Below are positions 11,483 to 28,089 of a DNA stretch of 64,000 bases, piece after piece (within the stretch, counting starts at the first letter, position 1; the number at the start of each line of letters is the position of its first letter). Source of the stretch: Candidatus Omnitrophota bacterium (GTDB taxonomy: Bacteria > Omnitrophota > Gorgyraeia > Gygaellales > JAHJCI01); contig JBDRMR010000001.1 of NCBI GenBank assembly GCA_043812035.1, forward strand, positions 58 to 64,057, read 5' to 3'. Under the pieces are notes generated by a model, which searched no databases, was not told where the DNA came from, and was given only the letters and a program-made list of their open reading frames with translations. The position numbers and the translations under genes were made by a program.

Positions 11483-12871
11483 TTACTTAGCAATCAGTTT
11501 CTGGTACAGTTGAATGTATTTTTTAGCCGACTCCTGCCAGGAGAAATTCGCTTTCATACCCCTGTCTATCTTTGCCTGCCATCTCTTTTTGTCCTTATAC
11601 AGGGATATAGCCTCCCTTACCGTTTCAACCAAAGCGGGTGCGCTATAGTTGTCAAAAATAAAACCGTTTGATTTATCTATCGTATCGGCTAAGCCTCCGG
11701 TCTTAAACACCAGGGGGGCGGTTGCGTATTTTAAGCTGATCATCTGCCCCAGGCCGCAGGGCTCGAATCTGGACGGCATTAAGAATATATCCGAACCGGC
11801 GTATATTTTATGCGCAAGAGCATTATCGAACTTGAGGAACAGGCGGAACGCTTTTTTAAATTTCCTGCTTTTTTCTTCCAGGAGCTTATGATATTTTATA
11901 TCGCCGGTCCCCAGTATTATCAGCTGCAAGTTAAGTTTGCACATATCTTCGAGGGCTTCGGCGAGTATATCCAATCCCTTCTGTTCGGCCAAGCGCGAGA
12001 CCATGCCAAGCAAAGGAACCTCTCTGTTTACGGTCAATTTGCATTCGCGCTGCAATCCCTCTTTGTTCTTATATTTATCTTTCAAATTCCGGGCATCGTA
12101 TTTATTGAAAATAAGTTTATCGGTTGAGGGATCCCAGGCAGAATAGTCCAGCCCGTTTAATATCCCGAACAGTACGTTCCTCCTCCCGGCAAGAACGCCG
12201 TCCAGCCCGCAGCCGAATTCTTTGGTCTGTATCTCGGCGGCATATGAGGAGCTTACCGTATTGATGCAGTCGGAAAAAACAATGCCTCCCTTTAAGATAT
12301 TGCCCTTGTCGTAGAACTCGAGCCGCTCCATATTAAAAAGAGACCAGTCCAGGCCCAGCTTGGGAAATTCCTCCCGGGCAAACGTGCCTTGATAGGCTAA
12401 GTTATGAATGGTAAGCAAAGTCTTAGTATCTCTGTAAAAAGAATCGCAAGAATAGACGGTTTTAAGATAAATCGGAATCAGAGAAGCCTGCCAGTCGTGA
12501 ACGTGAATTATGTCGGGTTTAAATTGAATCTGTTTGAGCAATTCCAGGCACTTGCGGGAGTAGAAAGAAAACCTTTCTATATTATCGGGATAGTCTCCCT
12601 GTTTGTCGCCGTAAAGCCCCTCCCGGTCAAAATATTTATCGTTTTGGATAAAATATACCTTGATATCCTTTCCTGCCTTGCCGGTCAGGATCCCCGGGAG
12701 CAAAGGCTTGACTTCGAATTTGGTAAGCGAGGCCTTTTTATAATACGGCGTAACGATAATGACCTCCTGTTTGAGCTTCTCCAGAGCCAAAGGCAAAGCC
12801 CCGGCTACGTCAGCCAGACCTCCGGTCTTGGCGAACGGAACCGCTTCCGACGCACACACAGCTATTTTCAT
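11483..12871 (-). CDS. glgA: glycogen synthase (ADP-glucose type)
   Basis: MKIAVCASEAVPFAKTGGLADV N-terminus is typical of GlgA. Start chosen at the internal Met (ATG 12869-12871), which removes the overlap with polA. The track ORF begins 8 codons earlier at 12895. Confidence 0.9.
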   Translation of the reverse strand: MKIAVCASEAVPFAKTGGLADVAGALPLALEKLKQEVIIVTPYYKKASLTKFEVKPLLPGILTGKAGKDIKVYFIQNDKYFDREGLYGDKQGDYPDNIERFSFYSRKCLELLKQIQFKPDIIHVHDWQASLIPIYLKTVYSCDSFYRDTKTLLTIHNLAYQGTFAREEFPKLGLDWSLFNMERLEFYDKGNILKGGIVFSDCINTVSSSYAAEIQTKEFGCGLDGVLAGRRNVLFGILNGLDYSAWDPSTDKLIFNKYDARNLKDKYKNKEGLQRECKLTVNREVPLLGMVSRLAEQKGLDILAEALEDMCKLNLQLIILGTGDIKYHKLLEEKSRKFKKAFRLFLKFDNALAHKIYAGSDIFLMPSRFEPCGLGQMISLKYATAPLVFKTGGLADTIDKSNGFIFDNYSAPALVETVREAISLYKDKKRWQAKIDRGMKANFSWQESAKKYIQLYQKLIAK

Positions 12872-15542: not shown

Positions 15543-16544
15543 TCAATTATCTTTAAGGCTTGAGGTAATCTCCGCGGAAATCTTTTCAAGTTCGCGCTTT
15601 GCTTCCTGAAGGTCGTCTTTCTGGTAATATCCCATTGCGTTTTGAAAATAATTTTCCATTTCGGCAATGCGGGCCCTTTTCCTTATTTCTTCTCTGAGGC
15701 TCAATAACTCCTGTCTATTTTCCGGATTGAGGTCTAAGACAAGGTCGAGGAGATCGATTGCTTTCGCATACTCTGCGTTTTGATATAATCTTTTTGCTTC
15801 GTTTACCAGCCCGTTGATTTTGGCGATACGGGCTTTCTTCTCCACTTCATCCCTAAAGCTCAACAGCTCCTCTTTGTTTGTCGGATTGAGATTTAAGGCA
15901 AGGTTAACGCTGTTGAGCGCCTTTTCGTATTCGCCGCTTTGGTACAAATTTTTTGCCTCGTTATACAGCCTGTTTATTTCGGCTAACTCTTTTAACCTTT
16001 CTTCTCTTCTCTTGACTGCCAACTCCTCGGCTAACTCTGCTGCCTGTGCCTTAAGATACTCCTGCTTAAGTTCCGGCACAAATTCTCTTAGCGCTACCAG
16101 CCTCTCTTGTGCTTTTTTTACCCAAACGTCTCCGGGCGGGCCTAATTCTATTCTTTTTTTCCAAAATCTGGCAGCGCTTACGTATTCCTTGTTTTTCTCG
16201 TATAGCATAGCCAGATTTGTGTATAAATTAGGATAATTAGGGTCGGTTTTCAGGCCGGCCAGATAGGCTTCTTCGGCCTTGTCGTCCATCCCTACGGCTT
16301 CGTAGACGATGCCCAAGTCGTTGTATGCGGCTGTGTAAGTCGGGTCTAAAATTATGGCTTTATGATAACATGCCATCGCTTCATCGAGACGCCCTTGGGA
16401 TTGAAACTCAAAGCCCTGTTTGCGATAGTATCGGGAACGTTCTAAAAGAAGTGGCAATTCCTTTGCGGGGAGCAAGGCAGGTAAGAAAAGGCAAACGGCA
16501 AGGAATATAAAAACATAACTACTTTTCTTTAAATATCTTAACAT
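15543..16544 (-). CDS. secreted TPR-repeat protein
   Basis: 333 aa. N-terminal signal peptide (FIFLAVCLFLPALLPA). Multiple TPR-like repeats (AxxxYxxAI...P). Confidence 0.7.
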   Translation of the reverse strand: MLRYLKKSSYVFIFLAVCLFLPALLPAKELPLLLERSRYYRKQGFEFQSQGRLDEAMACYHKAIILDPTYTAAYNDLGIVYEAVGMDDKAEEAYLAGLKTDPNYPNLYTNLAMLYEKNKEYVSAARFWKKRIELGPPGDVWVKKAQERLVALREFVPELKQEYLKAQAAELAEELAVKRREERLKELAEINRLYNEAKNLYQSGEYEKALNSVNLALNLNPTNKEELLSFRDEVEKKARIAKINGLVNEAKRLYQNAEYAKAIDLLDLVLDLNPENRQELLSLREEIRKRARIAEMENYFQNAMGYYQKDDLQEAKRELEKISAEITSSLKDN

Positions 16545-16591: not shown

Positions 16592-18772
16592 TTACAACAG
16601 AGCGGGCATGCTTAACGCAGGGTGTCCGACTTTAGACAAAAACTCCAGAAGTTGCTCCGAAGTAGTAGATTGCGTCTCGTCGGCAATCTTATCCGGTAAA
16701 TCCGGGTATCCGCTTTCCTGGCAACTCTGTTTTAATTTTCCCCCCAAACTTTCCTTTAACTCTTTAGGCATCCATACTATGCGGGCTAATCCGCCGTCCG
16801 CGGAAATAAATTTTTTACTCAAGATATAAAGTTTGCCTATGCCCAAAAAACCCGGGGTCTGAACGCCTCCTCCTACCGAACCGGCCAATCCGGTAAAGGT
16901 CATCCCGCAGGGCGTCATGCCGGAATGGTCGCGGTTAACAATCATAAAACCGTTTGCTTCGGGAATAATTGCCACGATGCACTCGAAGCATCCGCAAGAA
17001 CTCTGAGGACTATCCATAAGTGAGTACATGCTTACTTTACTTATGGTCTTATTTGATTTTTCATACACAAATCTGTTCACGTTTTCCCATTGGCCGAACT
17101 TCTGCTCGAGTACCTTTCCTTTTGTTATCGGCTGGTTTGGACCGGTGGGCGTAATCTCGTAGCAGGTCTTGGCATCCAGCCAGGAATAAGCCCCGCAGAG
17201 ACCCAGTCGCTCAGGGGTAACGATGCAAACATGATTAGGAGCGAAGGATTGGCAAAGTAAACACGAATAATACGTGTCCACGCTCTCGTCAGTCATGCCG
17301 CTTATGCGGCTATCCCGCTCATCGTATACCTTTCTTGCTCCGGACAATAATCTTTCCACGTCGGGAAGCTGGGTATATAACTTTACCTGTACCTTATCCA
17401 CGATTGCGCCGTAGTCCTTATGAAACATTGCGTGTAAAAATATACCGAAATGCTTAAGGCGAATGCCCTTGCTGAAAGCCTGCTGATTTATCCTTATCCA
17501 GCACATATCTCTCTGGCCGATATGCATAATTCCCATTGCGTAATTTGTATACCGGTGTATCTGGCGCTCCAGGACCGGCTCGAAATCTTTTTGCATCTTG
17601 CGGCCGGCCACTTCCGCAACAATCGCAAGGGGCATTGATTTTTTCTCCTTATCCAACTGGTCTATGTCGGGGCCGATAAGTTCGACTTTCCCGTCTTCGA
17701 CCTCTCCCAGTTCATTAGAGGTGAGGTATTCGAGAGCCGTGGAAGCCTTTCCGCCGAATTCAACATACAACTGCTCCCTCCTCACGCGCTCTCCCTCAAA
17801 AGCCGCTGCGTAAGGAACCGGGATGGGAATTTGAGTGACCGTAACTTTAACTCCTCTTACCTCGATAGCCCGCGCAACAATCTTTTTATGGTCAAGCTCC
17901 TTAACCAAAGCCTCGTAAGTGGTTATGCCCGAGGGTCTAATCTCTGGAATCTCGGTATCGGCTATTACCGGAAAACCCATATTAATCGCTCCGGCTCCGG
18001 TGGCGTATTTTAAATCGTCGACTTCGCCCAAGGTCAGCCCGAAGGCAAATACTCTCTCTTTTGTGTACAACAGGCATTGCTTTGCCTGGCCGGCTTTCAA
18101 TCCGCCGAAGGTAAGCGCCGAACGGATAGCCCAGTTCAGAGGATATATTGCCGAAACCGTATCCCTTCCGTAAGGGACAATATAATTGTCCCAACCCATC
18201 TGCACATCCTCCTCGATTAATTGGTCGATTACGGAGCGCCCGCCGGTGCTTGAGCCGACGAAAATAAGGATGTTCCTCTCCTGCAATTGACGAACGATTT
18301 CAACTGCGGTCCGGTTATCCGGCGCCGCGCCAAGGATTGCCGCAAATCCCGGCATGCGGCCGTCAACCAGTTGAATCCCCAGGGAACGCATAATCGTATC
18401 GGTAAAGAAACCGTTGCAGTCTTTCTGCGGCTCCTTGCCGTTGAGATACCGCAAAGCCATAATTATCTCCTCGGCCAGAAGAGTGGCGATTCCCGCATCC
18501 AGCGCATTGCCTAAATAAGGAAGCCAAAGATTTTCGGAAGGCTCTCCGGGCAATAAAGACCTGGCGTGCTCTAATACGGGCCTTGCGTCCTTTAAAGTCT
18601 TTACCTGAACTCCCAATAAAGCGTATGTCATCGGAAGATAAAAAGCCGTTTCCGGAAACTCTAATTTCTGCGCTTCTTGTTTCTCTTCTACCGCCTTATT
18701 TAAGGAATCCTGTGCTTCTTTAACAATTTTTTTTGCTCCGCGAATAACCGCTGTTGCAACAACCCTGGACAT
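16592..18772 (-). CDS. acsB: acetyl-CoA synthase catalytic subunit (CODH/ACS A-cluster subunit, AcsB/CdhC type)
   Basis: 726 aa. A-cluster cysteines are present: CxxC...C...C (YYSCLLCQSF...VCIV...LCGAY) and the Ni-bridging Cys-Gly-Cys (SSCGCFEC). Confidence 0.85.
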   Translation of the reverse strand: MSRVVATAVIRGAKKIVKEAQDSLNKAVEEKQEAQKLEFPETAFYLPMTYALLGVQVKTLKDARPVLEHARSLLPGEPSENLWLPYLGNALDAGIATLLAEEIIMALRYLNGKEPQKDCNGFFTDTIMRSLGIQLVDGRMPGFAAILGAAPDNRTAVEIVRQLQERNILIFVGSSTGGRSVIDQLIEEDVQMGWDNYIVPYGRDTVSAIYPLNWAIRSALTFGGLKAGQAKQCLLYTKERVFAFGLTLGEVDDLKYATGAGAINMGFPVIADTEIPEIRPSGITTYEALVKELDHKKIVARAIEVRGVKVTVTQIPIPVPYAAAFEGERVRREQLYVEFGGKASTALEYLTSNELGEVEDGKVELIGPDIDQLDKEKKSMPLAIVAEVAGRKMQKDFEPVLERQIHRYTNYAMGIMHIGQRDMCWIRINQQAFSKGIRLKHFGIFLHAMFHKDYGAIVDKVQVKLYTQLPDVERLLSGARKVYDERDSRISGMTDESVDTYYSCLLCQSFAPNHVCIVTPERLGLCGAYSWLDAKTCYEITPTGPNQPITKGKVLEQKFGQWENVNRFVYEKSNKTISKVSMYSLMDSPQSSCGCFECIVAIIPEANGFMIVNRDHSGMTPCGMTFTGLAGSVGGGVQTPGFLGIGKLYILSKKFISADGGLARIVWMPKELKESLGGKLKQSCQESGYPDLPDKIADETQSTTSEQLLEFLSKVGHPALSMPALL

Positions 18773-18785
18773 CGATTCCCCCCTT

Positions 18786-20051
18786 TTAAACTATATAAAC
18801 CTCGTCCTTCTGTTTGAGCAAATCTAATATCTTAGCGTAATTAAAAGTTTCCGATGACAACTCATCCTTAATGAAAGATATGTCGGTTTCTTCTTTTATA
18901 AGCCTTAAAAATACTCCGCAATTCCTTATATCTCCAACAGCAATCATCCCGGCGAGGCGATTCCCCTTCAAAACAAACTTTTTATAAATATCTCTCTTTT
19001 CGTCCAAGAAGACAATCTCTTCGAATTCAGGGCTCTTGGGTCTGATTATTCCGATGGAGATAGCGCAGAGGCCGAAGAATTCAATTGAATTCATTGACAT
19101 TGAGCCGCCGTATTCGATATCCTGACCGGCCATATTAAAACCGGCTACCCTGCCTTGCTCAACCGCGTTAGGCCAAAGAGCATTAACGGCGCTGTTTTTA
19201 TAGGCGAGGTCAAAACTCTGGGCTACGTCTCCGGCGGCAAAAATATTAGGAACGTTTGTTTTCATGTATTTATCAACGAGTATCCCCTTATCGGTATTTA
19301 TCCGGGTTTCTTTGATTAAATCCGTATTCGGACTTACCCCTTTGCCTATAACCAGGATTGAACAAGCAATGACCTTGCCGGTGTCGAGCTTTATTGCCTT
19401 CAAATCTCCGTTTCCTAAAATCTCTACGATGTCCCTGCCGGTCATAATCTCTACTCCGGCCTCCCGGAATCTCTTCATAAAAAATCCAGCCCCCTTCTCG
19501 TCGAGCATCTGGGAAAGGACAAATCCGGATTTAACGATTACCTTTATTCCCTGCTTTCTCTTTAAAAGCCCATAAGCGGCCTTAAAACCGATCAATCCTC
19601 CGCCCAATACGCAGCTGGTAGAAGAAACCGGCACCAAGCCCAAAATCTCTTTTGCGTCCTTTATTGTCCTGAATCCGAACACCCCTCTTTTCTTAAGGGC
19701 CTTCAGGTCCGGCGGAAACTTCGCCGAAGCGCCGGTAGCAATAAGCAGCGCATCGTAACCTATCGAGGTCTTATCCTCAAAAACCACCTTATTTTTCTTC
19801 GGTTCGACTTTTGTCACCTTCTTATTAAGAATTAAATCCAGATTATTCTCCTTGTAAAAACTCTGGGGCCTGTAGACCAGTTTTTCTTCCGGAACGTCTC
19901 CGGCTAAAAAATAGGAGATAAGGCAACGGCAGTAGGCGTCGTAATCCTCTTCAGAGATTATGGTAATCTTGCCGCCTCTGTCTTTATCCCTGATTGCCTC
20001 CGCAGCGGCTATTCCCGCCGCGGAATTGCCGACAATAACGAAATTTTTCAT
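18786..20051 (-). CDS. FAD/NAD(P)-dependent pyridine nucleotide-disulfide family oxidoreductase (CODH-associated FNOR-like)
   Basis: 421 aa. N-terminal GxGxxG (VIVGNSAAGIAAA) and a second dinucleotide-binding motif. Gene order cooS-cooF-FNOR matches the clostridial cooS1 modules. Confidence 0.7.
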   Translation of the reverse strand: MKNFVIVGNSAAGIAAAEAIRDKDRGGKITIISEEDYDAYCRCLISYFLAGDVPEEKLVYRPQSFYKENNLDLILNKKVTKVEPKKNKVVFEDKTSIGYDALLIATGASAKFPPDLKALKKRGVFGFRTIKDAKEILGLVPVSSTSCVLGGGLIGFKAAYGLLKRKQGIKVIVKSGFVLSQMLDEKGAGFFMKRFREAGVEIMTGRDIVEILGNGDLKAIKLDTGKVIACSILVIGKGVSPNTDLIKETRINTDKGILVDKYMKTNVPNIFAAGDVAQSFDLAYKNSAVNALWPNAVEQGRVAGFNMAGQDIEYGGSMSMNSIEFFGLCAISIGIIRPKSPEFEEIVFLDEKRDIYKKFVLKGNRLAGMIAVGDIRNCGVFLRLIKEETDISFIKDELSSETFNYAKILDLLKQKDEVYIV

Positions 20052-20052
20052 C

Positions 20053-21150
20053 CTACAGCCTCTCTACAAGCTTATCTATATCGACGTTTTCTTTTACTAA
20101 CTTCTGCACCGCCTCTATCTTCTCTTTATCCTGAGGTCTTATTTTTATCATCAGGTCATGGATGCGCGAGGCGACGCTATAGGTGTCCAGCTTGGCCAGG
20201 AGAACGGGTATCTTCGCCTGCTCTAACAGGTCCATAATCTTCTTGTGGGGCACAATGTTTCCGGTCAGGATAATCCCGGAGATATTAATATGGTCGGCGG
20301 AATTTCTAAAACAACAGCCAAGAAAAGCCAGAATCATATCTTCGCGGTCACCAGGCGTAATAAGGAGTGCTCCGTCAACAAAGTAATTTATGGCGTTGTG
20401 CGGCTGCATCGCCCCGACGACTATCTTCTTGACTAAATTATTCAGGCTTTCTTTGCCGCATAGCAATTGATAGTCGGTCTCCTCCAATATTTGCTCAATC
20501 GTCGGGCAGGACAACAGGGGTAGATAAGGCATGACTCCCAGGACCTCGATGCCTTTGCGCCCCAGCCCCTTCCTTACCAGTTTATTTACCTTGGAGAATT
20601 TTTCGGGCAAAACCTTGTTGATGACTACGCCGAGCAGCTCTATCCCTTCTTTTTCAAAAAGCGTCTTATTGAGAATAATTTCGTCGATAGGCCGGCCGAT
20701 ACCTCCTGAGGAAATGAGCAGAACTTTCGAATCTAACAATTTCGCCACGAAGGCATTGGAGTGGTCGAACACCGAACCGACCGCAGCGTGTCCGGTCCCC
20801 TCGATAATCATCAGTTCTTTATCCTGGGCTATTCGCGAAAAGGATTCTTTTATCTGACCTGTCAGCCTCTTGCTGTCGGGGTTAAGAATATATTTTTCTG
20901 TAAACCCGCGCTCCACGGCAATGGGGCTCATATCTTTAAGAACGTATCTTATGCCCAATGACTCAAAAAGCCTCTCTATCAGAACAGAATCCTCGTCTAC
21001 CTTTTCGCCTTCTTCCATAAGGTAGCGCTGGCCTATCGGTTTAATAAACCCGATTTTCTTAAACTTCTCCCTGAGATTAAAAATCAAACCCAGCGCAAGC
21101 GTAGTCTTGCCGTCATTTTGCTCTGTCGCGGCTATGAACAACTTTTTCAT
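20053..21150 (-). CDS. P-loop (CobQ/BioD-like) plus DRTGG domain protein, resembling the N-terminal domain of phosphotransacetylase
   Basis: 365 aa. MKKLFIAATEQNDGKTTLALGL P-loop. C-terminal ITPGDREDMILA resembles a DRTGG motif. No Pta catalytic domain. Confidence 0.5.
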   Translation of the reverse strand: MKKLFIAATEQNDGKTTLALGLIFNLREKFKKIGFIKPIGQRYLMEEGEKVDEDSVLIERLFESLGIRYVLKDMSPIAVERGFTEKYILNPDSKRLTGQIKESFSRIAQDKELMIIEGTGHAAVGSVFDHSNAFVAKLLDSKVLLISSGGIGRPIDEIILNKTLFEKEGIELLGVVINKVLPEKFSKVNKLVRKGLGRKGIEVLGVMPYLPLLSCPTIEQILEETDYQLLCGKESLNNLVKKIVVGAMQPHNAINYFVDGALLITPGDREDMILAFLGCCFRNSADHINISGIILTGNIVPHKKIMDLLEQAKIPVLLAKLDTYSVASRIHDLMIKIRPQDKEKIEAVQKLVKENVDIDKLVERL

Positions 21151-21583
21151 CGCTCTCCTGTAAAATAATCGCTCCGGTCAGGCAGGCCTTGACGCATGCC
21201 GGCCCAACCTCATCTTTGCATTTGTCGCAGCGTATGGGAATCTTGGTTTTTAGGTTTGGCCTGATTGCCCCGTAGGGACAGACCATCACGCACATCCAGC
21301 AGCCCACGCACCGGCTTTCTTCATGCAAAACCGTTTGGCTATGTCCGTCGTAAGTCAATGCGCCCGCCATGCAAGCATCAACGCAGGGGTGCTCCTGGCA
21401 ATGGCGGCAGGAAACGGGAAAATTTTTGTCTTTTGTTCTGTAAACCTTCTTCCGCGGCAGGGACAATATCTCTTCCTTAAGCGCCTTGAGCAAATTTTTG
21501 CTTTGCGAGTGGACCACGGCGCAGACAATCTCGCAAGATTTGCAACCGAGACATTTTTTAATATCGTAAAGGAGTTTATTCAT
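21113..21583 (-). CDS. cooF: 4Fe-4S ferredoxin-type iron-sulfur protein (CooF-like)
   Basis: 156 aa with four CxxCxxCxxxC(P) clusters. Lies immediately downstream of cooS. Confidence 0.75.
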   Translation of the reverse strand: MNKLLYDIKKCLGCKSCEIVCAVVHSQSKNLLKALKEEILSLPRKKVYRTKDKNFPVSCRHCQEHPCVDACMAGALTYDGHSQTVLHEESRCVGCWMCVMVCPYGAIRPNLKTKIPIRCDKCKDEVGPACVKACLTGAIILQESDEKVVHSRDRAK

Positions 21584-23498
21584 ACATCACGGGGCTAAGC
21601 TTCAGCGCTTTCCTTTTCTCATCAATGTGCTCAATCATGAGCTTAGCCATTTCCTTAGGGTCGCCGCAGAAAGCAAACTTTCCCGCTACCTGTTCCTCTA
21701 AACCCCCGCATAGATAATCGGTCAAATTTGGACTCCCTAAAGTGGGAAAGGGATTTGCGCCAAATACGGTAAAAACCCCGCTGGCCACAAAATACATACC
21801 GATGGTAATCGCTTTCTCGGACATCCATTCGGGCGCAGCTCCGGCTGCAGGGATATCGGACAAATCCTCACCCAAGCCGCCCTGCGCAATTATCTGGGAA
21901 GCGGCGGTTAGAATCCTGCTATTGTCAACACAGGAGCCTAAATGCAGAACCGGAGGAATACCCACGGCTTCGCAGATTTCCTGCAAGCCCCTGCCCGCAA
22001 ACTCCCTGGCGGCTTCGGGGACTAAGAGTCCCTGCTTTGCGCAGGCAATTGCTGAACAACCGGTCTGCAGCACTAAAACATCCTTTTTAATTAACTCTTT
22101 AACCAATGCGGTGTGAAAATAATCGTGGGTCTGCTTGGGGTTGTTGCACCCCACCACGCCTGCTACTCCCCGCAGCCGGCCCTGAATAATCGCGTCATTC
22201 AAGGGCTGATAAGTCGCTCTGTATCTTCCGCCCAGAATCTGAAACACGACCTCTTTGGTAAACCCAGCAATCAAATCCATCTCTTGTTTGGGAATACCAA
22301 CCCGCTCTTTGTTTCTGTTAGAAAAGTTTTCAATCCCTATCTTTATAATCTTCTTGGCGACTTCATAAGCATCTTTTGTCTGAAACTCTATATGCTCGAC
22401 TCCGGGAAACTTTGCCTTAGTGCTGGTGGTGACCAGCCTGGTATGAAAACAACTGGCAACCTCCTGTAATGCCGGCATAATGCATTGCACATCCACCATC
22501 ATCACCTCAACCGCGCCTGTAACGATGGCTAATTCCTGCTGCAGGAAATTTCCTGCCACCGCTATGCCGTGACGCATCAATACCTCATTTGCCGTGCAGC
22601 AGATTCCAGCCAGGTTTATGCCCTTGGCGCCTTTGGCCTGAGCCAGCTTTAACAACTCCGGATCCTGACTTGCCTTAACCGCCATCTCGGACAATACCGG
22701 CTCATGTCCGTGGACGACAATGTTAACGCTATCTTCTTTCAATACGCCCAGATTGACCTTTCCGCGAATGGGCTGCGGCGAGCCCAGGATTATGTCCTGC
22801 AGGTCCGTCGCCACCATTGAGCCGCCCCAACCGTCGGACAAGGCGCAACGCAAGCTGTTCTTTATTATATTCCTGTAATCGTTGTCTACGCCCATGGTCG
22901 TAGTGTGCAACAATTCCACAACCTCCCTGTCAATGCCCCGCGGGACAATACCCAGCTTCCTCCAGATATCCTGCCTTTTCTTTGGCGCCCGCTTTATAAA
23001 GCTGAGCTCGCCCTCCTGCTTTCCAAACTCATCCAATATCTTTCTGGCCAGCTCTTTGGCTATAACTTCCTGGGGTTTGTTTGTATCTATGGAGAACTCT
23101 GCGGCCAATTCCTTTAGTTTTTTGATATCCGAAATCCCGTAGTCATGGGCTTTGCCTTCGGCTAACAACAATAACGTATGGGCCACGTCTCTGCCGTGGT
23201 CGGAATGGGCTGAAGCGCCCACTGCAACCTTGCGGCCGAGGTTTCGGGCGGCGATTGTATCCGCATTGGCTCCGCAAACACCTGCTTGCGGCCCTTCGCC
23301 AAACGGGTCAATCCTGCAAGGCCCCATATCGCAGACGGTACAACACAACCCCAGTTGGCCGAAACCGCACTGCGGCTGCTGCTGCTCTAACCTCTCCCAG
23401 GCGGTGCGGACATTCTCCTCCTGCGCTTTCTTTAATGCCTCTTGCGTAGCTAAGTCTATAGATTTTGATTTTATATCTCCCATTAATGACCTCCGCAA
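21576..23498 (-). CDS. cooS: anaerobic carbon-monoxide dehydrogenase catalytic subunit (CooS/AcsA)
   Basis: 640 aa. N-terminal B/D-cluster motif CGFGQLGLCCTVCDMGPCRI. Full-length Ni-CODH similarity. Confidence 0.9.
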   Translation of the reverse strand: MRRSLMGDIKSKSIDLATQEALKKAQEENVRTAWERLEQQQPQCGFGQLGLCCTVCDMGPCRIDPFGEGPQAGVCGANADTIAARNLGRKVAVGASAHSDHGRDVAHTLLLLAEGKAHDYGISDIKKLKELAAEFSIDTNKPQEVIAKELARKILDEFGKQEGELSFIKRAPKKRQDIWRKLGIVPRGIDREVVELLHTTTMGVDNDYRNIIKNSLRCALSDGWGGSMVATDLQDIILGSPQPIRGKVNLGVLKEDSVNIVVHGHEPVLSEMAVKASQDPELLKLAQAKGAKGINLAGICCTANEVLMRHGIAVAGNFLQQELAIVTGAVEVMMVDVQCIMPALQEVASCFHTRLVTTSTKAKFPGVEHIEFQTKDAYEVAKKIIKIGIENFSNRNKERVGIPKQEMDLIAGFTKEVVFQILGGRYRATYQPLNDAIIQGRLRGVAGVVGCNNPKQTHDYFHTALVKELIKKDVLVLQTGCSAIACAKQGLLVPEAAREFAGRGLQEICEAVGIPPVLHLGSCVDNSRILTAASQIIAQGGLGEDLSDIPAAGAAPEWMSEKAITIGMYFVASGVFTVFGANPFPTLGSPNLTDYLCGGLEEQVAGKFAFCGDPKEMAKLMIEHIDEKRKALKLSPVMYE

Positions 23499-23522
23499 AT
23501 AATAAATGACGAAATAAGCTAT

Positions 23523-24398
23523 CTACAGTCCAGCTGCATCCAGAACCAGCGGAACCTTCTTATCCCAGCCAATCGGCATAATATGAATGCCCTGACACAC
23601 CGGCTTAAGTTGCTTGATAAGCCGAGCGGCTATCTCAACCGATTTCTTTGACCTGTCTTGTTTTGCTGCCGAGTTCATTTCATCGATTAAATCCTGCGGG
23701 ACGGTAACTCCGGCTACGTTTTCGTTCATGTATTTTGCCATCCCCGCGGATTTTAACAAAACGATACCGGCGAGTATCGTAGTCTTCAAATGCTTAATCC
23801 TGGACAGAAAATTTTCATAGACCTTTATGTCATATACCGCCTGAGTCTGAAAAAACTCAGCACCTTGCTCGATTTTCTTCTCCATCTTGATAATCTGAGG
23901 CTCTATTGGGTCTGCTCCGGGATTTACCACTGCTCCGACGCAAAATTTAGGCGGCTCGCCCTCAAGATTATTGCCTGCCATGTCAAAACCTTCCTGGAGT
24001 TTCTCTACCACGCCCAATAACTGCACGGAATCCAAATCGAACACCGGCTTTGCCTGAGGGTGGTCTCCCATAGTCGTATGGTCGCCGGTTAAGACTAAAA
24101 TATTCTCGATGCCCAGACTTGCAGCGGATAGAATGTCCGACTGCAGAGCCAGGCGATTGCGGTCCCGGCAGGTTATCTGGAATATCGGCTCAAATCCTCT
24201 CTGCTTCAGGAGTGCGCACACCGCCAATGAACCCAATCTCATCACCGAACTCTGCAGGTCCGTGACGTTTATTGCGTCAACCCTGCCGCGAATGAGCTCT
24301 GCGTCCTCCAAAATCACCTTGGTCTCAATCCCCTTCGGAGGCCCTATCTCAGAGGTCACCAGAAATTTTCCTGCCCGAATCTTTTCCTTAAAACTCAT
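23523..24398 (-). CDS. metF: 5,10-methylenetetrahydrofolate reductase
   Basis: 291 aa MTHFR TIM-barrel (FLVTSEIGPPKG...). Sits within the folate-branch cluster. Confidence 0.85.
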   Translation of the reverse strand: MSFKEKIRAGKFLVTSEIGPPKGIETKVILEDAELIRGRVDAINVTDLQSSVMRLGSLAVCALLKQRGFEPIFQITCRDRNRLALQSDILSAASLGIENILVLTGDHTTMGDHPQAKPVFDLDSVQLLGVVEKLQEGFDMAGNNLEGEPPKFCVGAVVNPGADPIEPQIIKMEKKIEQGAEFFQTQAVYDIKVYENFLSRIKHLKTTILAGIVLLKSAGMAKYMNENVAGVTVPQDLIDEMNSAAKQDRSKKSVEIAARLIKQLKPVCQGIHIMPIGWDKKVPLVLDAAGL

Positions 24399-24411
24399 CT
24401 CTTCTCCATGC

Positions 24412-24921
24412 CTATCCCACCAACCTGGCGACTAAATGACCAATACCATGCGAAATAACAATAACAAATAAAGCCAGTAAAACATGCTCAGAGATAAGTA
24501 TTACTGAGTTTTCCTGTTTTACCCTGGCAATAGCAAAGTTAAGAAAAACTAGTAGTAATATTCCCCAAGCAATGGCAACGAAGACGGCATTTCTTAAAGG
24601 AAGAATCAAAAAGGGGACAGCAAAAGTTAAAGTAAAAGTAAGTTTAGAAATAAAAGTAAAGATGGTAGCTGCCCAAATTTCCTTTTGAGTATGCTTAGCG
24701 GTTCCCTTTTCAAGCTCTGATTCCTCAGATATATGCACGCCTGCTGCATCGGATAAACCATCAGCTATTGCCAGAATTATGACGCTGGCAATAACCACTA
24801 ATCGTGAAGAGGTGGCTGAATTCAAACCCACAATCATCCCCAGAGAAGTAATTACCCCAGAGGTCATACCGAAAGAAACTCCTGTCATTAACTGATGAAA
24901 ATATTTTTTAATCATCCACAA
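24412..24921 (-). CDS. small integral membrane protein, VIT1/CCC1-like (DUF125) candidate
   Basis: 169 aa with about 5 predicted TM segments. The AIADGLSDAAG motif resembles the VIT family. Homology not verified. Confidence 0.4.
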   Translation of the reverse strand: MWMIKKYFHQLMTGVSFGMTSGVITSLGMIVGLNSATSSRLVVIASVIILAIADGLSDAAGVHISEESELEKGTAKHTQKEIWAATIFTFISKLTFTLTFAVPFLILPLRNAVFVAIAWGILLLVFLNFAIARVKQENSVILISEHVLLALFVIVISHGIGHLVARLVG

Positions 24922-24929
24922 ATACCTGT

Positions 24930-25769
24930 CTATGCTTGCAGCTTGGTTGCCTCAACTACATTACACATCAACATTATTACGGTAAGTGGACCTACCCCAC
25001 CAGGAACAGGCGTAATCCAAGAGGCGCGCTTTACTGCTTGGTCAAACTCCACATCTCCCACAATCTTATCACCAACCCGATTTATGCCTACATCAACAAC
25101 CACTGCCCCCTGTTTAATCCATGCACCCTTAATTAATCCTGCTTTTCCCACAGCCACAACCAAAATCTCAGCGCTCTTTACATGCTCTTCTAACTTGCCC
25201 GCCTGGGATGTTCCGATATGGCAGACTGTGACTGTAGCAAATTTCTCAAGAAGAAGAAGCGATAAGGGTTTACCCACAATCTCACTGTGTCCGACAATTA
25301 CCACCTCTTTTCCATATAAATCAACTCCCGTCTGTTTTAACAATTCCATCACTGCCGCTGGGGTGCAAGGCAAAATCCTTGCTTTACCAAACGTGATTTT
25401 GCCCATATTCATCGGATGCATTCCCTCTGCATCTTTCTCGGGCAGAATAAAGTTGCTCATCTTTTTATAATCGATTTGTGCCGGCAGTGGCATTTGCAGT
25501 ATTATTCCATTTACGCCCTTATCCTGGTTTAATCTCTGTATAAAATCTATCAGCTCTTGCTCTTTTGTTTCCTGATTTAATTTGTGGAACTGATAGTCTA
25601 TACCCAAATTCTCTGCGGTTTTCTTCTGCGACTTTGCATAAGACTCAGCCCCAGCGTTCTCTCCTACCTGAATGCTAATCAATACCGGCTTTATCTTCAA
25701 TTCCTGAATTCTCTTCTTTAACTCTTCCTTAATTCTATTAGCAATCGGTTTACCCTCTAATAATTTCAT
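24930..25769 (-). CDS. folD: bifunctional methylene-THF dehydrogenase / methenyl-THF cyclohydrolase
   Basis: 279 aa. MKLLEGKPIANRIKEEL N-terminus. Conserved FolD core. Confidence 0.9.
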   Translation of the reverse strand: MKLLEGKPIANRIKEELKKRIQELKIKPVLISIQVGENAGAESYAKSQKKTAENLGIDYQFHKLNQETKEQELIDFIQRLNQDKGVNGIILQMPLPAQIDYKKMSNFILPEKDAEGMHPMNMGKITFGKARILPCTPAAVMELLKQTGVDLYGKEVVIVGHSEIVGKPLSLLLLEKFATVTVCHIGTSQAGKLEEHVKSAEILVVAVGKAGLIKGAWIKQGAVVVDVGINRVGDKIVGDVEFDQAVKRASWITPVPGGVGPLTVIMLMCNVVEATKLQA

Positions 25770-26310
25770 CTATCCTTTCCTCCAGATTATGACGCATTTT
25801 TATTATTGTACCCCTCTTTTTATCTAACTCTTTATTTATTTTATCTGCCCTTTTTTTATTGTTTAAATATTTCAGATTTATCCTTACATTAAATAAAGCG
25901 CTGGAAAATCCTGACTCAAGCAAAATAGCGGCAACCGCCACATCGCTAATCAAATTTATATTACCTTTTTTTAATAAGGTTGGGCATAGCCTTAAAACCT
26001 CAGAGCAAAGTCTGGCTATCTCTAGAGGAACTCTAAGCGATTTATTTATATCTTTACTCTTAAAAGCCAAGACATCTAAATCCACAAGTTGCAAAAACCT
26101 CTTTCTTGCTTTTTCTGTAACAGATAATACCCTGGCTAAATCTGCTCGATATTTTGCATATTTTGGTTTACCGAGGGTAAAATTAATAACCATACCAATT
26201 AAAGCTGCCCCCAGCGCTGCAGTCAATGCCGCTGCAGAACCTCCTCCCGGAGCAGGAAGCTTTGCCGCCAGGTCATCCAGATATTTCTTAAGAGATTTAT
26301 TGTAATACAT
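25750..26310 (-). CDS. fchA: formiminotransferase-cyclodeaminase C-domain family protein (methenyl-THF cyclohydrolase FchA-like)
   Basis: 186 aa. LPAPGGGSAAALTAALGAAL signature of the cyclodeaminase/cyclohydrolase family. Located between fhs and folD as in acetogens. Confidence 0.7.
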   Translation of the reverse strand: MYYNKSLKKYLDDLAAKLPAPGGGSAAALTAALGAALIGMVINFTLGKPKYAKYRADLARVLSVTEKARKRFLQLVDLDVLAFKSKDINKSLRVPLEIARLCSEVLRLCPTLLKKGNINLISDVAVAAILLESGFSSALFNVRINLKYLNNKKRADKINKELDKKRGTIIKMRHNLEERIDEIIRG

Positions 26311-26317
26311 AAATTTT

Positions 26318-26385
26318 TAGCGTGCAGCGGATAGCGTACAGCGTTTAGTATTTCCTATACGCTATACGCTATACGCTCTACGCTA
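26318..26385. repeat. heptamer-based palindromic intergenic element (family B, copy 3); overlaps the fhs stop codon
   Basis: tagcgtgcagcggatagcgtacagcgtttagta-tttcc-tatacgctatacgctatacgctctacgcta. The final cta at 26383-26385 is the fhs TAG stop. Confidence 0.7.
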
Positions 26386-28089
26386 AAATAAGCCTGTAAT
26401 CTTTCCGTTTTCGTCAATATCAATCTTCTCTCCGGCAGGATGACTGGGCAAACCGGGCATTGTCCGCATTGACCCGCATAATAAATACAAGAATCCCGCT
26501 CCAACCGAGGCGCGTATATCCCGGATGGGTAAAGTAAACCCTTGAGGACGTCCTTTTATTTTAGGGTCGTGCGAAAGGGAAAGGTGGGTCTTGGCCATAC
26601 ATATAGGCAGTTTATCGTAACCAAACTTCGTATAAAGCCTTATCTTAGCACGAGCGGCTTCTTCATAACGAACAGCTCCTGCGCCATAAATCTTCTTGGC
26701 AATTGTCTCAACCTTTTTTTTGATTGGCCAATTAAGCGAATAGAGAAATTTAAAACTGGATTTCTTCTCGGCAGCGCGCACAACTGCCTTAGCCAGCTCC
26801 TCCCCGCCCTTAGAGCCTCTTGCCCAAACCTCACTGAGAACTGCATCTTCTGCGCCTGCCTCAATGGCCTTTTTACGAATCAGCTCTATCTCTCTTTTTG
26901 TATCGGTAGTGAATTTATTTATCGCCACCACCACAGGCACGCCAAATAGCTTCATATTTTCTATTTGCTTCTCTAGATTAGAACACCCTTGCTCCAGAGC
27001 CTCCAGATTTTCCTGCAGGAGCCTCCGGTCAAGCGGTTTACCAGCAACAACAGTAAACTTGCCCGAATGCATCTTCAGCGCCCGAACAGTGCAAACCAAA
27101 ACCACACAATCAGGCCGAAGGCCGCTTATCCGGCACTTTATGTTAAAGAACTTCTCTGCCCCACAGTCAGCGCCGAAGCCAGACTCAGTAACAACGTACT
27201 CCGAAAGCTTCAAAGCGATTTTATCAGCAAGGATGGAGCTGTTACCGTGGGCGATATTGGCAAATGGACCGGCATGGACAAAACAGGGAGTGTTCTCGAT
27301 AGTCTGCAGCAAATTGGGTTTAAGCGCATCTTTAAGCAAAACCGTCATTGCGCCAGCTACCTTGATATCCTCGGCAGTAACGGGTCTACCGTCTTTTGTG
27401 GTAGCTAACACGATACGGCCAAGGCGCTTACGCAAATCCTCCAGCCCATTGGTCAGGGCAAGTATAGCCATTACCTCGCTGGCCACGGTTATATCAAATC
27501 CGGAATCCCGCGGGAAACCATCCTCTGATCCGCCTAAACCGATCTTTATATTACGCAAAAACCTGTCCGAGACATCAACTACGCGGCGCCAGATTATCGA
27601 GGAGGGGTCTATATTGAGTGGATTTCCCTTTAGGATAGAATTGTCCAAAAATGCCGCGCAGAGATTATGTGCCAGGCCTACTGCATGGACATCGCCGGTA
27701 AGATGCAGGTTGAAATCCTCCATTGGAACGACCTGAGAATAACCTCCACCGGCCGCACCCCCTTTTATCCCGAATACAGGACCCAGTGAGGGCTGACGGA
27801 TACAAACAGTAGTTTGCTTGCCGATCCGGTTCAAAGACATAGCCAGACCAATAGTGGTAACCGTCTTTCCTTCGCCCAAGGGAGTGGGTGTTATTGCGGT
27901 TACATCGATATACTTGTTATTCTTCCTGTCCTTTAAACGTTTTAAAGTTAACAAAGATACCTTTGCCTTATAGTCTCCATAAAGATAGAGTTCTTTCTGC
28001 TTAAGCCCTAAGCTCTTGGCAATTGTCTTTATGGGCACCAAACGTGCGCGTCTGGCGATCTCTAAATCAGTCAGCATTACTACCTCCAC
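26383..28089 (-). CDS. fhs: formate--tetrahydrofolate ligase
   Basis: 568 aa. [16 protein letters not shown]-loop of FTHFS. Confidence 0.95.

What the first reader, a model, noticed from the sequence alone, without database searches (positions are those of the whole stretch)
16592..28089. Wood-Ljungdahl gene block with CODH and acetyl-CoA synthase but no corrinoid iron-sulfur protein or methyltransferase genes in the window
One co-directional run encodes fhs, an FchA-like protein, folD, a VIT-like membrane protein, metF, cooS, a cooF-like protein, a Pta-N-like protein, an FAD/NAD oxidoreductase and acsB. This covers the whole methyl branch from formate to methyl-THF and the carbonyl branch. 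Classical acs operons place acsC, acsD (the CFeSP) and acsE (methyl-THF:CFeSP methyltransferase) next to acsB. Here acsB is followed instead by a secreted TPR protein and polA. MetF appears without a MetV partner. Either the missing components are encoded elsewhere or the pathway is wired differently, for example with acsB used in a non-canonical context.
Basis: partly seen in the sequence, partly recalled or inferred. Interest (0 to 1): 0.5.

Follow-up and report, generated by a model that had tools for sequence, protein, structure and literature searches.

The report
Wood-Ljungdahl operon cut short after acsB
An uncultured Omnitrophota bacterium carries ten carbon-fixation (Wood-Ljungdahl) genes in one block that stops just before the methyl-carrier genes that follow in its relatives; a whole clade shares this gene order and the missing genes are most likely elsewhere in the genome, so it is probably ordinary.

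Summary
On the minus strand, 28089-16592 encodes fhs, an FchA-like protein, folD, a weak VIT-like membrane protein, metF, cooS, cooF, an AAA_26/DRTGG protein, an FAD/NAD oxidoreductase and bacterial-type acsB, followed by a TPR protein and polA. No acsC, acsD, acsE, cooC or RACo, nor any remnant of them, occurs in any frame of the window.

The window is almost all of a 64,343-bp contig of an NCBI Candidatus Omnitrophota MAG, so the genes are not hiding just outside it.

The gene order is not an artefact. About 50 related loci end the block with acsB then (TPR)-polA. Other Omnitrophota and neighbouring phyla carry one long operon that continues acsB-acsC-RACo-cooC-acsD-acsE. The window's clade has that operon cut exactly after acsB.

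I could not read the rest of any genome with this order. AcsB keeps its metal-cluster cysteines and all but one (Thr to Ser) of the residues conserved in complete operons. Split acs loci exist in relatives, and published Omnitrophota surveys report AcsB-E. The missing module is therefore most likely elsewhere (about 0.7). True loss remains possible (about 0.13).

Side result: the "Pta-N-like" gene is the free N-terminal module of a split phosphotransacetylase.

The parts
26383..28089 (-). fhs, formate-tetrahydrofolate ligase (568 aa)
   Evidence: PF01268, 877 bits; NF010030, 829 bits against a cutoff of 652
25750..26310 (-). FchA-like methenyl-THF cyclohydrolase (FTCD_C family, 186 aa)
   Evidence: PF04961, 162 bits. 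The NCBIfam FchA score (142 bits) is below the cutoff of 275. Conserved at this position in relatives.
24930..25769 (-). folD, bifunctional methylene-THF dehydrogenase/cyclohydrolase (279 aa)
   Evidence: PF02882 and PF00763
24412..24921 (-). Small membrane protein, weakly VIT1/CCC1-like (169 aa); a variable insert
   Evidence: VIT1, 25 bits, below the gathering score. At least four hydrophobic segments. Found only in the window and L006 among the relatives.
23523..24398 (-). metF, methylene-THF reductase (291 aa), with no MetV next to it
   Evidence: PF02219, 122 bits. 64-87% identical in relatives.
21576..23498 (-). cooS, Ni-CODH catalytic subunit (640 aa with the TTG start; the true start is uncertain)
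   Evidence: TIGR01702, 674 bits against a cutoff of 478. Best solved structures: 6t7j (718 bits) and the CODH of the C. autoethanogenum CODH/ACS complex, 6ytt_B (646 bits).
21113..21583 (-). CooF-like 4Fe-4S electron-transfer protein (156 aa)
   Evidence: Fer4_11 and Fer4_7; HydN/CooF-type matches
20053..21150 (-). AAA_26+DRTGG protein (365 aa): the free N-terminal module of a split phosphotransacetylase
   Evidence: PF13500 and PF07085; PRK05632 (Pta) residues 2-370. Homologues at 60-64% identity lie directly upstream of pta-ackA.
18786..20051 (-). FAD/NAD(P) oxidoreductase (FNOR type, 421 aa)
   Evidence: Pyr_redox_2 and Rubredoxin_C; PadH-like, 290 bits. The cooS-cooF-FNOR trio is conserved in relatives.
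16592..18772 (-). acsB, bacterial acetyl-CoA synthase (726 aa), the last gene of the block
   Evidence: NF040764, 1028 bits. Architecture CODH_A_N + CdhC + ACS_CODH_B_C. 718 bits to C. hydrogenoformans ACS (7zkj_B). CxxC...C...C and CGC metal-cluster motifs are present.
15543..16544 (-). TPR protein with a signal-like N-terminus; marks the junction that replaces acsC
   Evidence: TPR families. Hydrophobic N-terminus. Orthologous position in most window-like loci.
12868..15447 (-). polA, the housekeeping flank downstream of the junction
   Evidence: DNA_pol_A and 5'-3' exonuclease domains. Follows acsB (with or without the TPR gene) in about 40 related loci.

Best explanation
The block is the front part of the Wood-Ljungdahl operon typical of Omnitrophota and neighbouring lineages.

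In many relatives the operon runs fhs-fchA-folD-metF-(cooC)-cooS-cooF-FNOR-acsB-acsC-RACo-cooC-acsD-acsE, often ending with the Pta N-module gene. In the window's clade a rearrangement broke the operon exactly after acsB and joined acsB to a TPR gene and polA. Published taxonomy tables place three relatives with this order in class Velamenicoccia (GTDB Koll11), family Profunditerraquicolaceae (UBA6249). The methyl-transfer module (CFeSP AcsC/AcsD, its activator RACo, CooC, and the methyltransferase AcsE) is inferred to lie on another contig of the same genome.

Inferred working from established pathway knowledge. Formate is activated by Fhs; no formate dehydrogenase is present. It is reduced through FchA/FolD and MetF to methyl-THF. 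AcsE and the CFeSP, encoded elsewhere, pass the methyl group to the metal cluster of AcsB. CooS makes CO from CO2 with electrons delivered through CooF, and the FNOR links CooF to NAD(P)(H). AcsB, whose N-terminal domain docks on CooS, joins methyl, CO and CoA into acetyl-CoA. Pta and AckA then turn acetyl-CoA into acetate plus ATP, with the co-encoded Pta N-module taking part.

Shown here: gene identities, intact AcsB motifs, clade-wide synteny, the complete operon in relatives, and the Pta link. Inferred: the location of acsCDE, the CooS-AcsB complex, and the direction of flux.
For: (1) Identity and integrity of all ten genes.

(2) The arrangement is real and inherited. The same order with acsB followed by (TPR)-polA-glgA is seen in L001-L003 and in about 40 of the 80 GTDB species representatives found with AcsB. 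Another 15 or so loci in the same AcsB clades end too soon after acsB to show the junction.

(3) The complete operon, with acsC-RACo-cooC-acsD-acsE directly after acsB, is present in other Omnitrophota. These include two closed genomes, CP070837 and CP070780, and also L032, L036, L084, L101, L106 and L109. In the AcsB tree, L032 is sister to the window's clade.

(4) Split loci exist in this group. L039 and L044 have acsB-acsC followed by unrelated genes. L107 has acsC-RACo-acsD-acsE with no acsB upstream.

(5) Conservation test. Of 180 AcsB columns at least 95% conserved in complete-operon lineages, the window's clade keeps all but one (Thr to Ser). The sister clade that lost cooS has changed 10 of 62 positions in the CODH-docking N-domain but only 1 of 118 in the catalytic domains. 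Loss of a partner therefore leaves a detectable mark, and none is seen where the CFeSP would act.

(6) Seymour et al. 2023 (PMC10066038, main text and Supplementary Notes) report a WLP with an 'AcsB-E complex' in Velamenicoccia and Gorgyraia. They list as having the most complete pathway the families QZM4-1-77 and QZM4-1-127, whose names match the isolates of L019 and L013, both loci with the window's gene order.

(7) The AAA_26/DRTGG gene sits upstream of pta-ackA in relatives. This ties the operon to acetate formation.
Against: No acsC, acsD or acsE was found in any genome that has this arrangement, because I could not read beyond 10 kb from acsB in relatives or beyond the 64-kb contig here.

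Two AcsC searches, one seeded with the sister lineage L032 and one with the stand-alone type P0130, returned 190 sequences. All ten AcsC clusters whose context could be read sit right after acsB in the complete-operon order, with the single exception of the small stand-alone cluster. None of the named NCBI hits looked up carries an accession in the window MAG's range (MFH1338xxx).

This negative result is weak. AcsC diverges fast (L032 against L106: AcsB 75%, AcsC 57%). The partner clade is therefore expected at about 50% identity, below the 120-hit cut-off.

The published statement on AcsB-E is not given gene by gene. Reducing CO2 to CO with NAD(P)H through FNOR-CooF is thermodynamically uphill, so the electron route and direction remain uncertain.
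Confidence: 0.7

Rival explanations
1. True loss. The clade with the acsB-TPR-polA junction deleted acsC-RACo-cooC-acsD-acsE and has no CFeSP or MeTr. In that case CooS, CooF, FNOR and AcsB would either use an unrelated corrinoid or methyl donor, or serve only for CO/CO2 handling and acetyl-CoA carbonyl exchange. The folate genes would serve only C1 biosynthesis from formate.
For: The module is missing at the ancestral position in every locus of two AcsB clades. The window holds no remnant and no alternative corrinoid or methyltransferase gene, and none lies downstream of acsB in variant loci. No partner AcsC clade turned up in two searches. Omnitrophota genomes are reduced (PMC10066038).
Against: No known AcsB function works without a methylated corrinoid protein (established biochemistry). 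AcsB catalytic domains show no relaxation, whereas loss of cooS does leave a mark in the N-domain. metF is kept next to cooS and acsB throughout the clade. The new junction has different flanks, which looks like a breakpoint rather than a simple deletion. The literature reports AcsB-E. The AcsC searches were too shallow to exclude a partner at about 50% identity.
Confidence: 0.13
2. Same genes, opposite direction. The pathway runs oxidatively: acetyl-CoA is cleaved, CO is oxidised by CooS with electrons passed through CooF and FNOR to NAD(P)+, and the methyl group is oxidised to formate. This would fit syntrophic or predatory growth on acetyl-CoA, or supply of C1 units.
For: CO oxidation coupled to NAD(P)+ reduction is the favourable direction for a CooS-CooF-FNOR unit, and that is the role proposed for such clusters (PMC6344411). 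There is no formate dehydrogenase, so formate could be the end product. Seymour et al. note that the WLP enzymes can also run in reverse.
Against: The operon is linked to the Pta N-module, and through relatives to pta-ackA, which points to acetate formation with ATP gain. Published reconstructions favour fermentative acetogenesis. Sequence alone cannot decide direction.
Confidence: 0.25
3. Artefact. The missing genes reflect a contig break, mis-assembly or mis-binning rather than the real gene order.
For: The source is a MAG contig, and MAGs are often incomplete.
Against: acsB lies 16.5 kb from one contig end and 45 kb from the other. It is followed without a gap by TPR, polA, glgA, coaE and rho. 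The same junction occurs in independent assemblies, including single-cell genomes, JGI, ENA and NCBI records, and contigs up to 551 kb.
Confidence: 0.01

Closest known systems
Wood-Ljungdahl pathway of Omnitrophota classes Velamenicoccia and Gorgyraia (Seymour et al. 2023, PMC10066038)
   Same: Same phylum and the same enzyme set: Fhs, FolD, MetF, CooS/CooF, AcsB, no formate dehydrogenase, and Pta-AckA acetogenesis. The families QZM4-1-77 and QZM4-1-127 that the paper lists as having the most complete pathway match the isolate names of L019 and L013, loci with the window's gene order.
   Different: The text I could read does not describe gene order or the break after acsB. It reports AcsB-E as a set, not gene by gene.
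Complete WL operon of other Omnitrophota (closed genomes CP070837 and CP070780; L036, L101, L109)
   Same: The same genes in the same order from fhs to acsB, including the cooS-cooF-FNOR trio. AcsB is 68-69% identical.
   Different: Those loci continue acsB-acsC-RACo-cooC-acsD-acsE and usually end with the DRTGG gene. The window stops at acsB and has the DRTGG gene moved between cooF and FNOR.
Classical acs gene clusters of Moorella thermoacetica and Carboxydothermus hydrogenoformans
   Same: Bacterial three-domain AcsB with identical metal-cluster motifs (718 bits to 7zkj_B, 675 bits to 1mjg_M).
   Different: No acsC, acsD, acsE or cooC next to acsB. The CODH is closer to the 6t7j, D. vulgaris and C. 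autoethanogenum CODHs (646-718 bits) than to Moorella AcsA (502 bits). It is also accompanied by CooF and an FNOR.
Incomplete Wood-Ljungdahl pathway of Dehalococcoides mccartyi (Zhuang et al. 2014, as cited in PMC9324843)
   Same: A precedent for a partial WLP in which AcsB is kept for a non-canonical purpose.
   Different: D. mccartyi keeps AcsB with the CFeSP and lacks CODH and MetF. Here CODH and MetF are present, and it is the CFeSP and MeTr genes that are not seen.
CooS-CooF-FNOR gene clusters (Whitham 2015; Geelhoed 2016; reviewed by Inoue et al. 2019, PMC6344411)
   Same: The same trio: a Ni-CODH, a CooF-type ferredoxin and a COG1251-type FAD/NAD(P) oxidoreductase.
   Different: Here the trio is embedded between metF and acsB in a WL operon instead of standing alone as a CO-oxidising unit.

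Membership tests
Bacterial acetyl-CoA synthase AcsB (CODH/ACS alpha subunit) | Three-domain architecture with an N-terminal CODH-binding domain | tested here: met
   CODH_A_N + CdhC + ACS_CODH_B_C. NF040764 scores 1028 bits against a cutoff of 800.
Bacterial acetyl-CoA synthase AcsB (CODH/ACS alpha subunit) | Metal-cluster (A-cluster) ligands: CxxC...C...C for the [4Fe-4S] part and Cys-Gly-Cys for the Ni-Ni site | tested here: met
   C504-x2-C507...C516...C526 and C593-G-C595 in the window protein, aligned with the C. hydrogenoformans ACS 7zkj_B.
Bifunctional CODH/ACS with CFeSP and MeTr (complete carbonyl branch) | A Ni-CODH catalytic subunit encoded with acsB | tested here: met
   cooS lies three genes upstream of acsB. 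TIGR01702 scores 674 bits against a cutoff of 478. It is close to the CODH of the C. autoethanogenum CODH/ACS complex.
Bifunctional CODH/ACS with CFeSP and MeTr (complete carbonyl branch) | CFeSP subunits AcsC and AcsD present in the genome | not testable with these tools
   Absent from the 64-kb window. The window's proteins are not in the gene-position index.
Bifunctional CODH/ACS with CFeSP and MeTr (complete carbonyl branch) | Methyl-THF:CFeSP methyltransferase AcsE present in the genome | not testable with these tools
   No Pterin_bind ORF in the window. tblastn with Moorella MeTr (verified as 2e7f_A) and three relatives' AcsE gave nothing better than E = 0.24.
Classical contiguous acs operon (acsA/cooS, acsB, acsC, acsD, acsE, cooC) | acsC, acsD and acsE adjacent to acsB | tested here: not met
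   acsB is followed 47 bp later by a TPR gene and then polA. The same holds in about 40 related loci.
CooS-CooF-FNOR module | Ni-CODH, a CooF-type poly-ferredoxin and a Pyr_redox_2 FAD/NAD(P) oxidoreductase in one directon | tested here: met
   In the window the three genes are interrupted by the DRTGG gene. They are contiguous in most relatives.
Dehalococcoides-type incomplete WLP | AcsB and CFeSP present; CODH and MetF absent | tested here: not met
   cooS and metF are both present and intact.
Long-form phosphotransacetylase (PtaII), N-terminal module | A P-loop (AAA_26/BioD-like) domain plus a DRTGG domain, functionally linked to a PTA_PTB catalytic domain | tested here: met
   AAA_26 + DRTGG. 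Matches residues 2-370 of the PRK05632 Pta model. Homologues at 60-64% identity are immediately followed by a 309-aa PTA_PTB protein and ackA. No pta is in the window.
MetFV-type methylene-THF reductase | MetV (PF12225/DUF5981) encoded next to MetF | tested here: not met
   No PF12225 ORF in the window. MetV is present next to metF only in some relatives (L104, L105, L106).

The most novel reading that the evidence does not exclude
[quoted passage not shown] This covers at least about 45 GTDB species in two AcsB clades. The clade still keeps the folate methyl branch, and acetyl-CoA synthase under strong purifying selection. CODH is also kept in one of the two clades, which holds the window. 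Acetyl-CoA synthase would then receive its methyl group from an unknown donor, or would serve a role other than acetyl-CoA synthesis or cleavage.
Probability: 0.13. Interest if true: 0.7.

Novelty: new member of a known kind. Interest (0 to 1): 0.3.

Why it matters
If the missing module is elsewhere, this is a routine case of a pathway spread over two loci. Its value is practical: it maps how the Omnitrophota WL operon is built, shows where it broke, and warns annotators not to call the pathway incomplete from one contig.

If the module is really absent from the clade, it would be the first acetyl-CoA synthase kept without its corrinoid partner. That would open the question of how methyl groups reach the enzyme in very small, possibly predatory bacteria.

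A simple search of complete genomes decides between the two, so the question is cheap to close.

Tried and rejected
(1) Exact look-up of the window's AcsB in the gene-position index failed twice, so the MAG's other contigs could not be reached.

(2) The DRTGG gene was used as an anchor to find a relocated acsCDE module (metagenome scan). The homologues turned out to sit next to pta-ackA, not acsCDE. Only the short locus L100 shows acsD-acsE followed by DRTGG.

(3) AcsC searches were seeded with the sister lineage L032 and with the stand-alone type P0130. The 190 hits were clustered. Context was inspected for ten clusters. Nine sit right after acsB in the complete-operon order (L032, L033, L036/L103, L060, L084/L085, L101, L104, L106, L109). 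One small cluster (L107) is stand-alone. No cluster could be tied to a genome with the window's order.

(4) Accession matching with the listing of cluster members. Unnamed NCBI entries carry no accession. The one named hit, MFH1046187, belongs to another MAG.

(6) Pfam scan of genes downstream of acsB in variant loci (L012, L020, L021, L079). These are signalling and housekeeping genes, with no corrinoid or methyltransferase genes.

(7) Supplementary tables of PMC10066038 were searched for per-genome acsC/D/E calls. The relevant sheets were cut off in the stored copy.

(8) The promoter and terminator scan gave counts no higher than in shuffled sequence, so it does not delimit an operon.

(9) Assembly artefact was rejected on the synteny evidence.

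(10) An archaeal CdhC-type AcsB was rejected. The protein has the bacterial N-terminal domain and scores far higher on the bacterial alpha/beta model.


Full report
**1. What is in the window**

Every large ORF that matched a protein family lies on the minus strand. Between 28089 and 16592, ten tightly packed genes (gaps from -38 to +72 bp) encode the following:

- Fhs.
- An FTCD_C/FchA-like cyclohydrolase.
- FolD.
- A 169-aa membrane protein with a below-threshold VIT1 match.
- MetF.
- A Ni-CODH catalytic subunit CooS (TIGR01702, 674 bits against a cutoff of 478).
- A CooF-type ferredoxin.
- An AAA_26+DRTGG protein.
- A Pyr_redox_2/Rubredoxin_C FAD-NAD(P) oxidoreductase (FNOR).
- AcsB (NF040764, 1028 bits against a cutoff of 800).

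AcsB has the bacterial three-domain architecture. It aligns end to end with Carboxydothermus hydrogenoformans ACS (718 bits) and Moorella AcsB (675 bits). It keeps the CxxC...C...C and Cys-Gly-Cys metal-cluster motifs. CooS is closest to 6t7j, to the Desulfovibrio vulgaris CODH and to the CODH subunit of the Clostridium autoethanogenum CODH/ACS complex. It is less close to Moorella AcsA.

Upstream lie trmD, rplS, rnhB and yraN. Downstream lie a TPR protein with a signal-like N-terminus, then polA, glgA, coaE and rho.

**2. Are the CFeSP and methyltransferase genes really absent?**

Pfam scans of essentially all other sizeable ORFs found only housekeeping and envelope genes. A six-frame tblastn used AcsC, RACo, CooC, AcsD and AcsE from three relatives and the Moorella methyltransferase. 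I recalled that sequence from memory and verified it as identical to PDB 2e7f_A. The search found nothing better than E = 0.22. So there is no gene and no pseudogene remnant.

The 100%-identical AcsB in the protein database is from an NCBI MAG named Candidatus Omnitrophota bacterium. Its contig is 64,343 bp, so only 343 bp lie outside the window.

**3. The arrangement is inherited by a whole clade**

The top 120 AcsB relatives (75-87% identity) are all Omnitrophota-like. Two of them show the same order, trmD-rplS-rnhB-yraN-fhs-fchA-folD-metF-cooS-cooF-FNOR-acsB-TPR-polA-glgA, on 147-kb and 157-kb contigs.

A scan of one genome per GTDB species with AcsB returned 80 loci at 58-83% identity. I mapped 25 reference proteins onto these by tblastn. 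Two arrangements appear:

- **Type 1, as in the window.** acsB is followed by (TPR)-polA. About 40 loci show this junction. Some 15 more fall in the same AcsB clades but end too soon after acsB to show it. One clade has cooS-cooF-FNOR (AcsB 70-83% identical to the window). A second clade lacks cooS (59-63%).
- **Type 2.** acsB is followed within 20-2000 bp by acsC. In most loci with enough sequence, RACo, cooC, acsD and acsE follow.

Pfam confirmed the type-2 module in L036. Gene tables confirmed it in L084, L085 (closed genome CP070837), L101, L103 (closed genome CP070780), L104, L106 and L109.

In several of these loci the operon starts with fhs-fchA-folD-metF. The ancestral state is therefore a single long WL operon, and the window's clade has it cut exactly after acsB. 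In a neighbour-joining tree of AcsB, each of the two type-1 clades has a type-2 sister: L032 for the window's clade and L067/L080 for the cooS-less clade.

Record titles, together with the taxonomy tables of Seymour et al., place three type-1 genomes in Velamenicoccia, Gygaellales, Profunditerraquicolaceae (GTDB Koll11; GIF10; UBA6249). These are QZM4_1.bins.77, CAIRWO01 and JZ-4.bins.180.

**4. Relocated or lost?**

I could not read the rest of any type-1 genome. The evidence is therefore indirect.

For relocation:

- Breaks inside the acs cluster occur in this group. L039 and L044 have acsB-acsC followed by unrelated genes. L107 carries acsC-RACo-acsD-acsE preceded by lspA and a dksA-type gene rather than acsB.
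- A conservation test points the same way. Of 180 alignment columns at least 95% conserved in type-2 AcsB, the window's clade retains all but one (Thr to Ser at window position 591). The cooS-less clade has changed 10 of 62 conserved positions in the N-terminal CODH-docking domain but only 1 of 118 in the two catalytic domains. Loss of a partner leaves a visible mark on AcsB, and no such mark is seen where a methyl donor must act.
- metF stays adjacent to cooS/acsB throughout.
- Seymour et al. 2023 describe the Omnitrophota WLP as including an 'AcsB-E complex'. The families they list as having the most complete pathway include QZM4-1-77 and QZM4-1-127, whose names match the isolates of L019 and L013, both of type 1.

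For loss:

- Two AcsC searches, seeded with the sister lineage L032 and with the stand-alone type, gave 190 sequences. All ten clusters whose context I could read are type 2, apart from the small stand-alone cluster.
- No hit could be tied to the window's MAG.

This negative result is weak. AcsC diverges much faster than AcsB (L032 against L106: AcsB 75%, AcsC 57%). A type-1 AcsC is therefore expected at about 50% identity to L032's. That places it inside the mass of sequences from many phyla that the 120-hit limit cuts off.

I put relocation at about 0.7 and true loss at about 0.13.

**5. How it most likely works**

Gene identities are shown. The rest follows from established knowledge of the pathway.

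- Formate, not CO2, enters the methyl branch, because no formate dehydrogenase is present. The literature says the same for this phylum.
- Fhs, FchA/FolD and MetF give methyl-THF.
- AcsE and the CFeSP, inferred to be encoded elsewhere, methylate AcsB.
- CooS supplies CO. AcsB then forms acetyl-CoA.
- The cooS-cooF-FNOR trio is a known unit (PMC6344411). Here it is built into the operon. In one relative it is replaced by a NuoE/NuoF-type module. This suggests that pyridine nucleotides take part in the redox balance of the carbonyl branch.
- CO2 reduction by NAD(P)H alone is uphill. The direction (acetogenic sink or acetyl-CoA oxidation) and the real electron donor therefore remain open.

**6. 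The AAA_26/DRTGG gene**

Homologues at 60-64% identity in metagenome contigs are followed immediately by a 309-aa PTA_PTB protein and acetate kinase. The protein is therefore the free N-terminal module of a split long-form Pta.

In type-2 clusters the gene closes the acs operon. In L104, L105 and L060 it sits between RACo and acsD, where cooC usually lies. In the window's sub-clade (window, L004, L006, L086-L088) it lies between cooF and FNOR. This repeated link to acs genes supports acetyl-CoA to acetate as the downstream route.

**7. Comparison and verdict**

The block is a member of the known bacterial Wood-Ljungdahl and CODH/ACS systems, and of the Omnitrophota version already reported. 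It fails the 'contiguous acs operon' test. It does not match the Dehalococcoides type of incomplete pathway. Whether it meets the full CODH/ACS-CFeSP definition cannot be tested with these tools.

MetF without MetV is the commonest state in this group, complete operons included. Only L104, L105 and L106 have MetV.

The gene order itself, an ancestral operon cut after acsB across dozens of species, was not mentioned in the papers I could search. As it stands it is a modest variant. Interest is low to moderate. It would rise sharply only if complete genomes show that the CFeSP and MeTr genes are truly gone.

Noticed in passing
window 20053-21150; L091-L095; L104, L105, L060: The AAA_26+DRTGG protein is the free N-terminal module of a split phosphotransacetylase. 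It lies directly upstream of pta-ackA in relatives. It also recurs in acs clusters, and in some of them it occupies the slot where cooC usually sits.
   Followed up: yes
P0020, P0022; L085 6227-9991 (CP070837); L103 6164-9991 (CP070780): Some Omnitrophota AcsB proteins are 1209-1275 aa long because an intein with a LAGLIDADG homing endonuclease is inserted in the C-terminal catalytic domain.
   Followed up: no
AcsB alignment of L061-L083 (the cooS-less clade), window-equivalent residues 20-282: The clade that lost cooS has replaced 10 of 62 otherwise conserved residues in the CODH-docking N-terminal domain of AcsB but kept the catalytic domains. This looks like a signature of partner loss.
   Followed up: partly
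window 1-64000: All of the roughly 60 ORFs that matched a protein family in the 64-kb window are on the minus strand, with negative GC skew throughout. This is an unusually strong strand bias.
   Followed up: no
L084 3614-6685: In one single-cell Omnitrophota genome the FNOR between cooF and acsB is replaced by a NuoE/NuoF/ferredoxin-type (HydBC-like) module. This suggests interchangeable NAD(H)-linked electron modules for the CODH.
   Followed up: no
L036 18018-19727; L084, L085; L101, L106, L109: Complete operons carry conserved extra genes after acsE. They are either yjbQ plus an OMPdecase/RraA fusion protein, or panB, apbA and a second Pterin_bind paralogue. Their role in the pathway is unknown.
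   Followed up: no
L106 7646-9801: acsB is called as two ORFs (202 aa and 529 aa) in a 399-kb ENA scaffold. This may be a frameshift or a genuine split between the N-terminal and catalytic domains.
   Followed up: no
window 24412-24921: A small four-helix membrane protein with a below-threshold VIT1/CCC1 match sits between folD and metF. Among the relatives it occurs only in the window and L006. In L106 the MetV gene occupies that slot.
   Followed up: partly
L015, L025, L028, L029 (upstream of cooS): Some loci with the window's gene order carry a cooC gene between metF and cooS, and their CooS is only 58-62% identical to the window's. There appear to be two CooS subtypes within the clade.
   Followed up: no
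window 11483-12895, 44595-46172, 46258-47280: Glycogen metabolism genes are scattered in the window: glgA, a GH57 branching enzyme, and a DUF4912 protein with a faint glucodextranase-domain match. glgA is part of the conserved flank downstream of polA.
   Followed up: no
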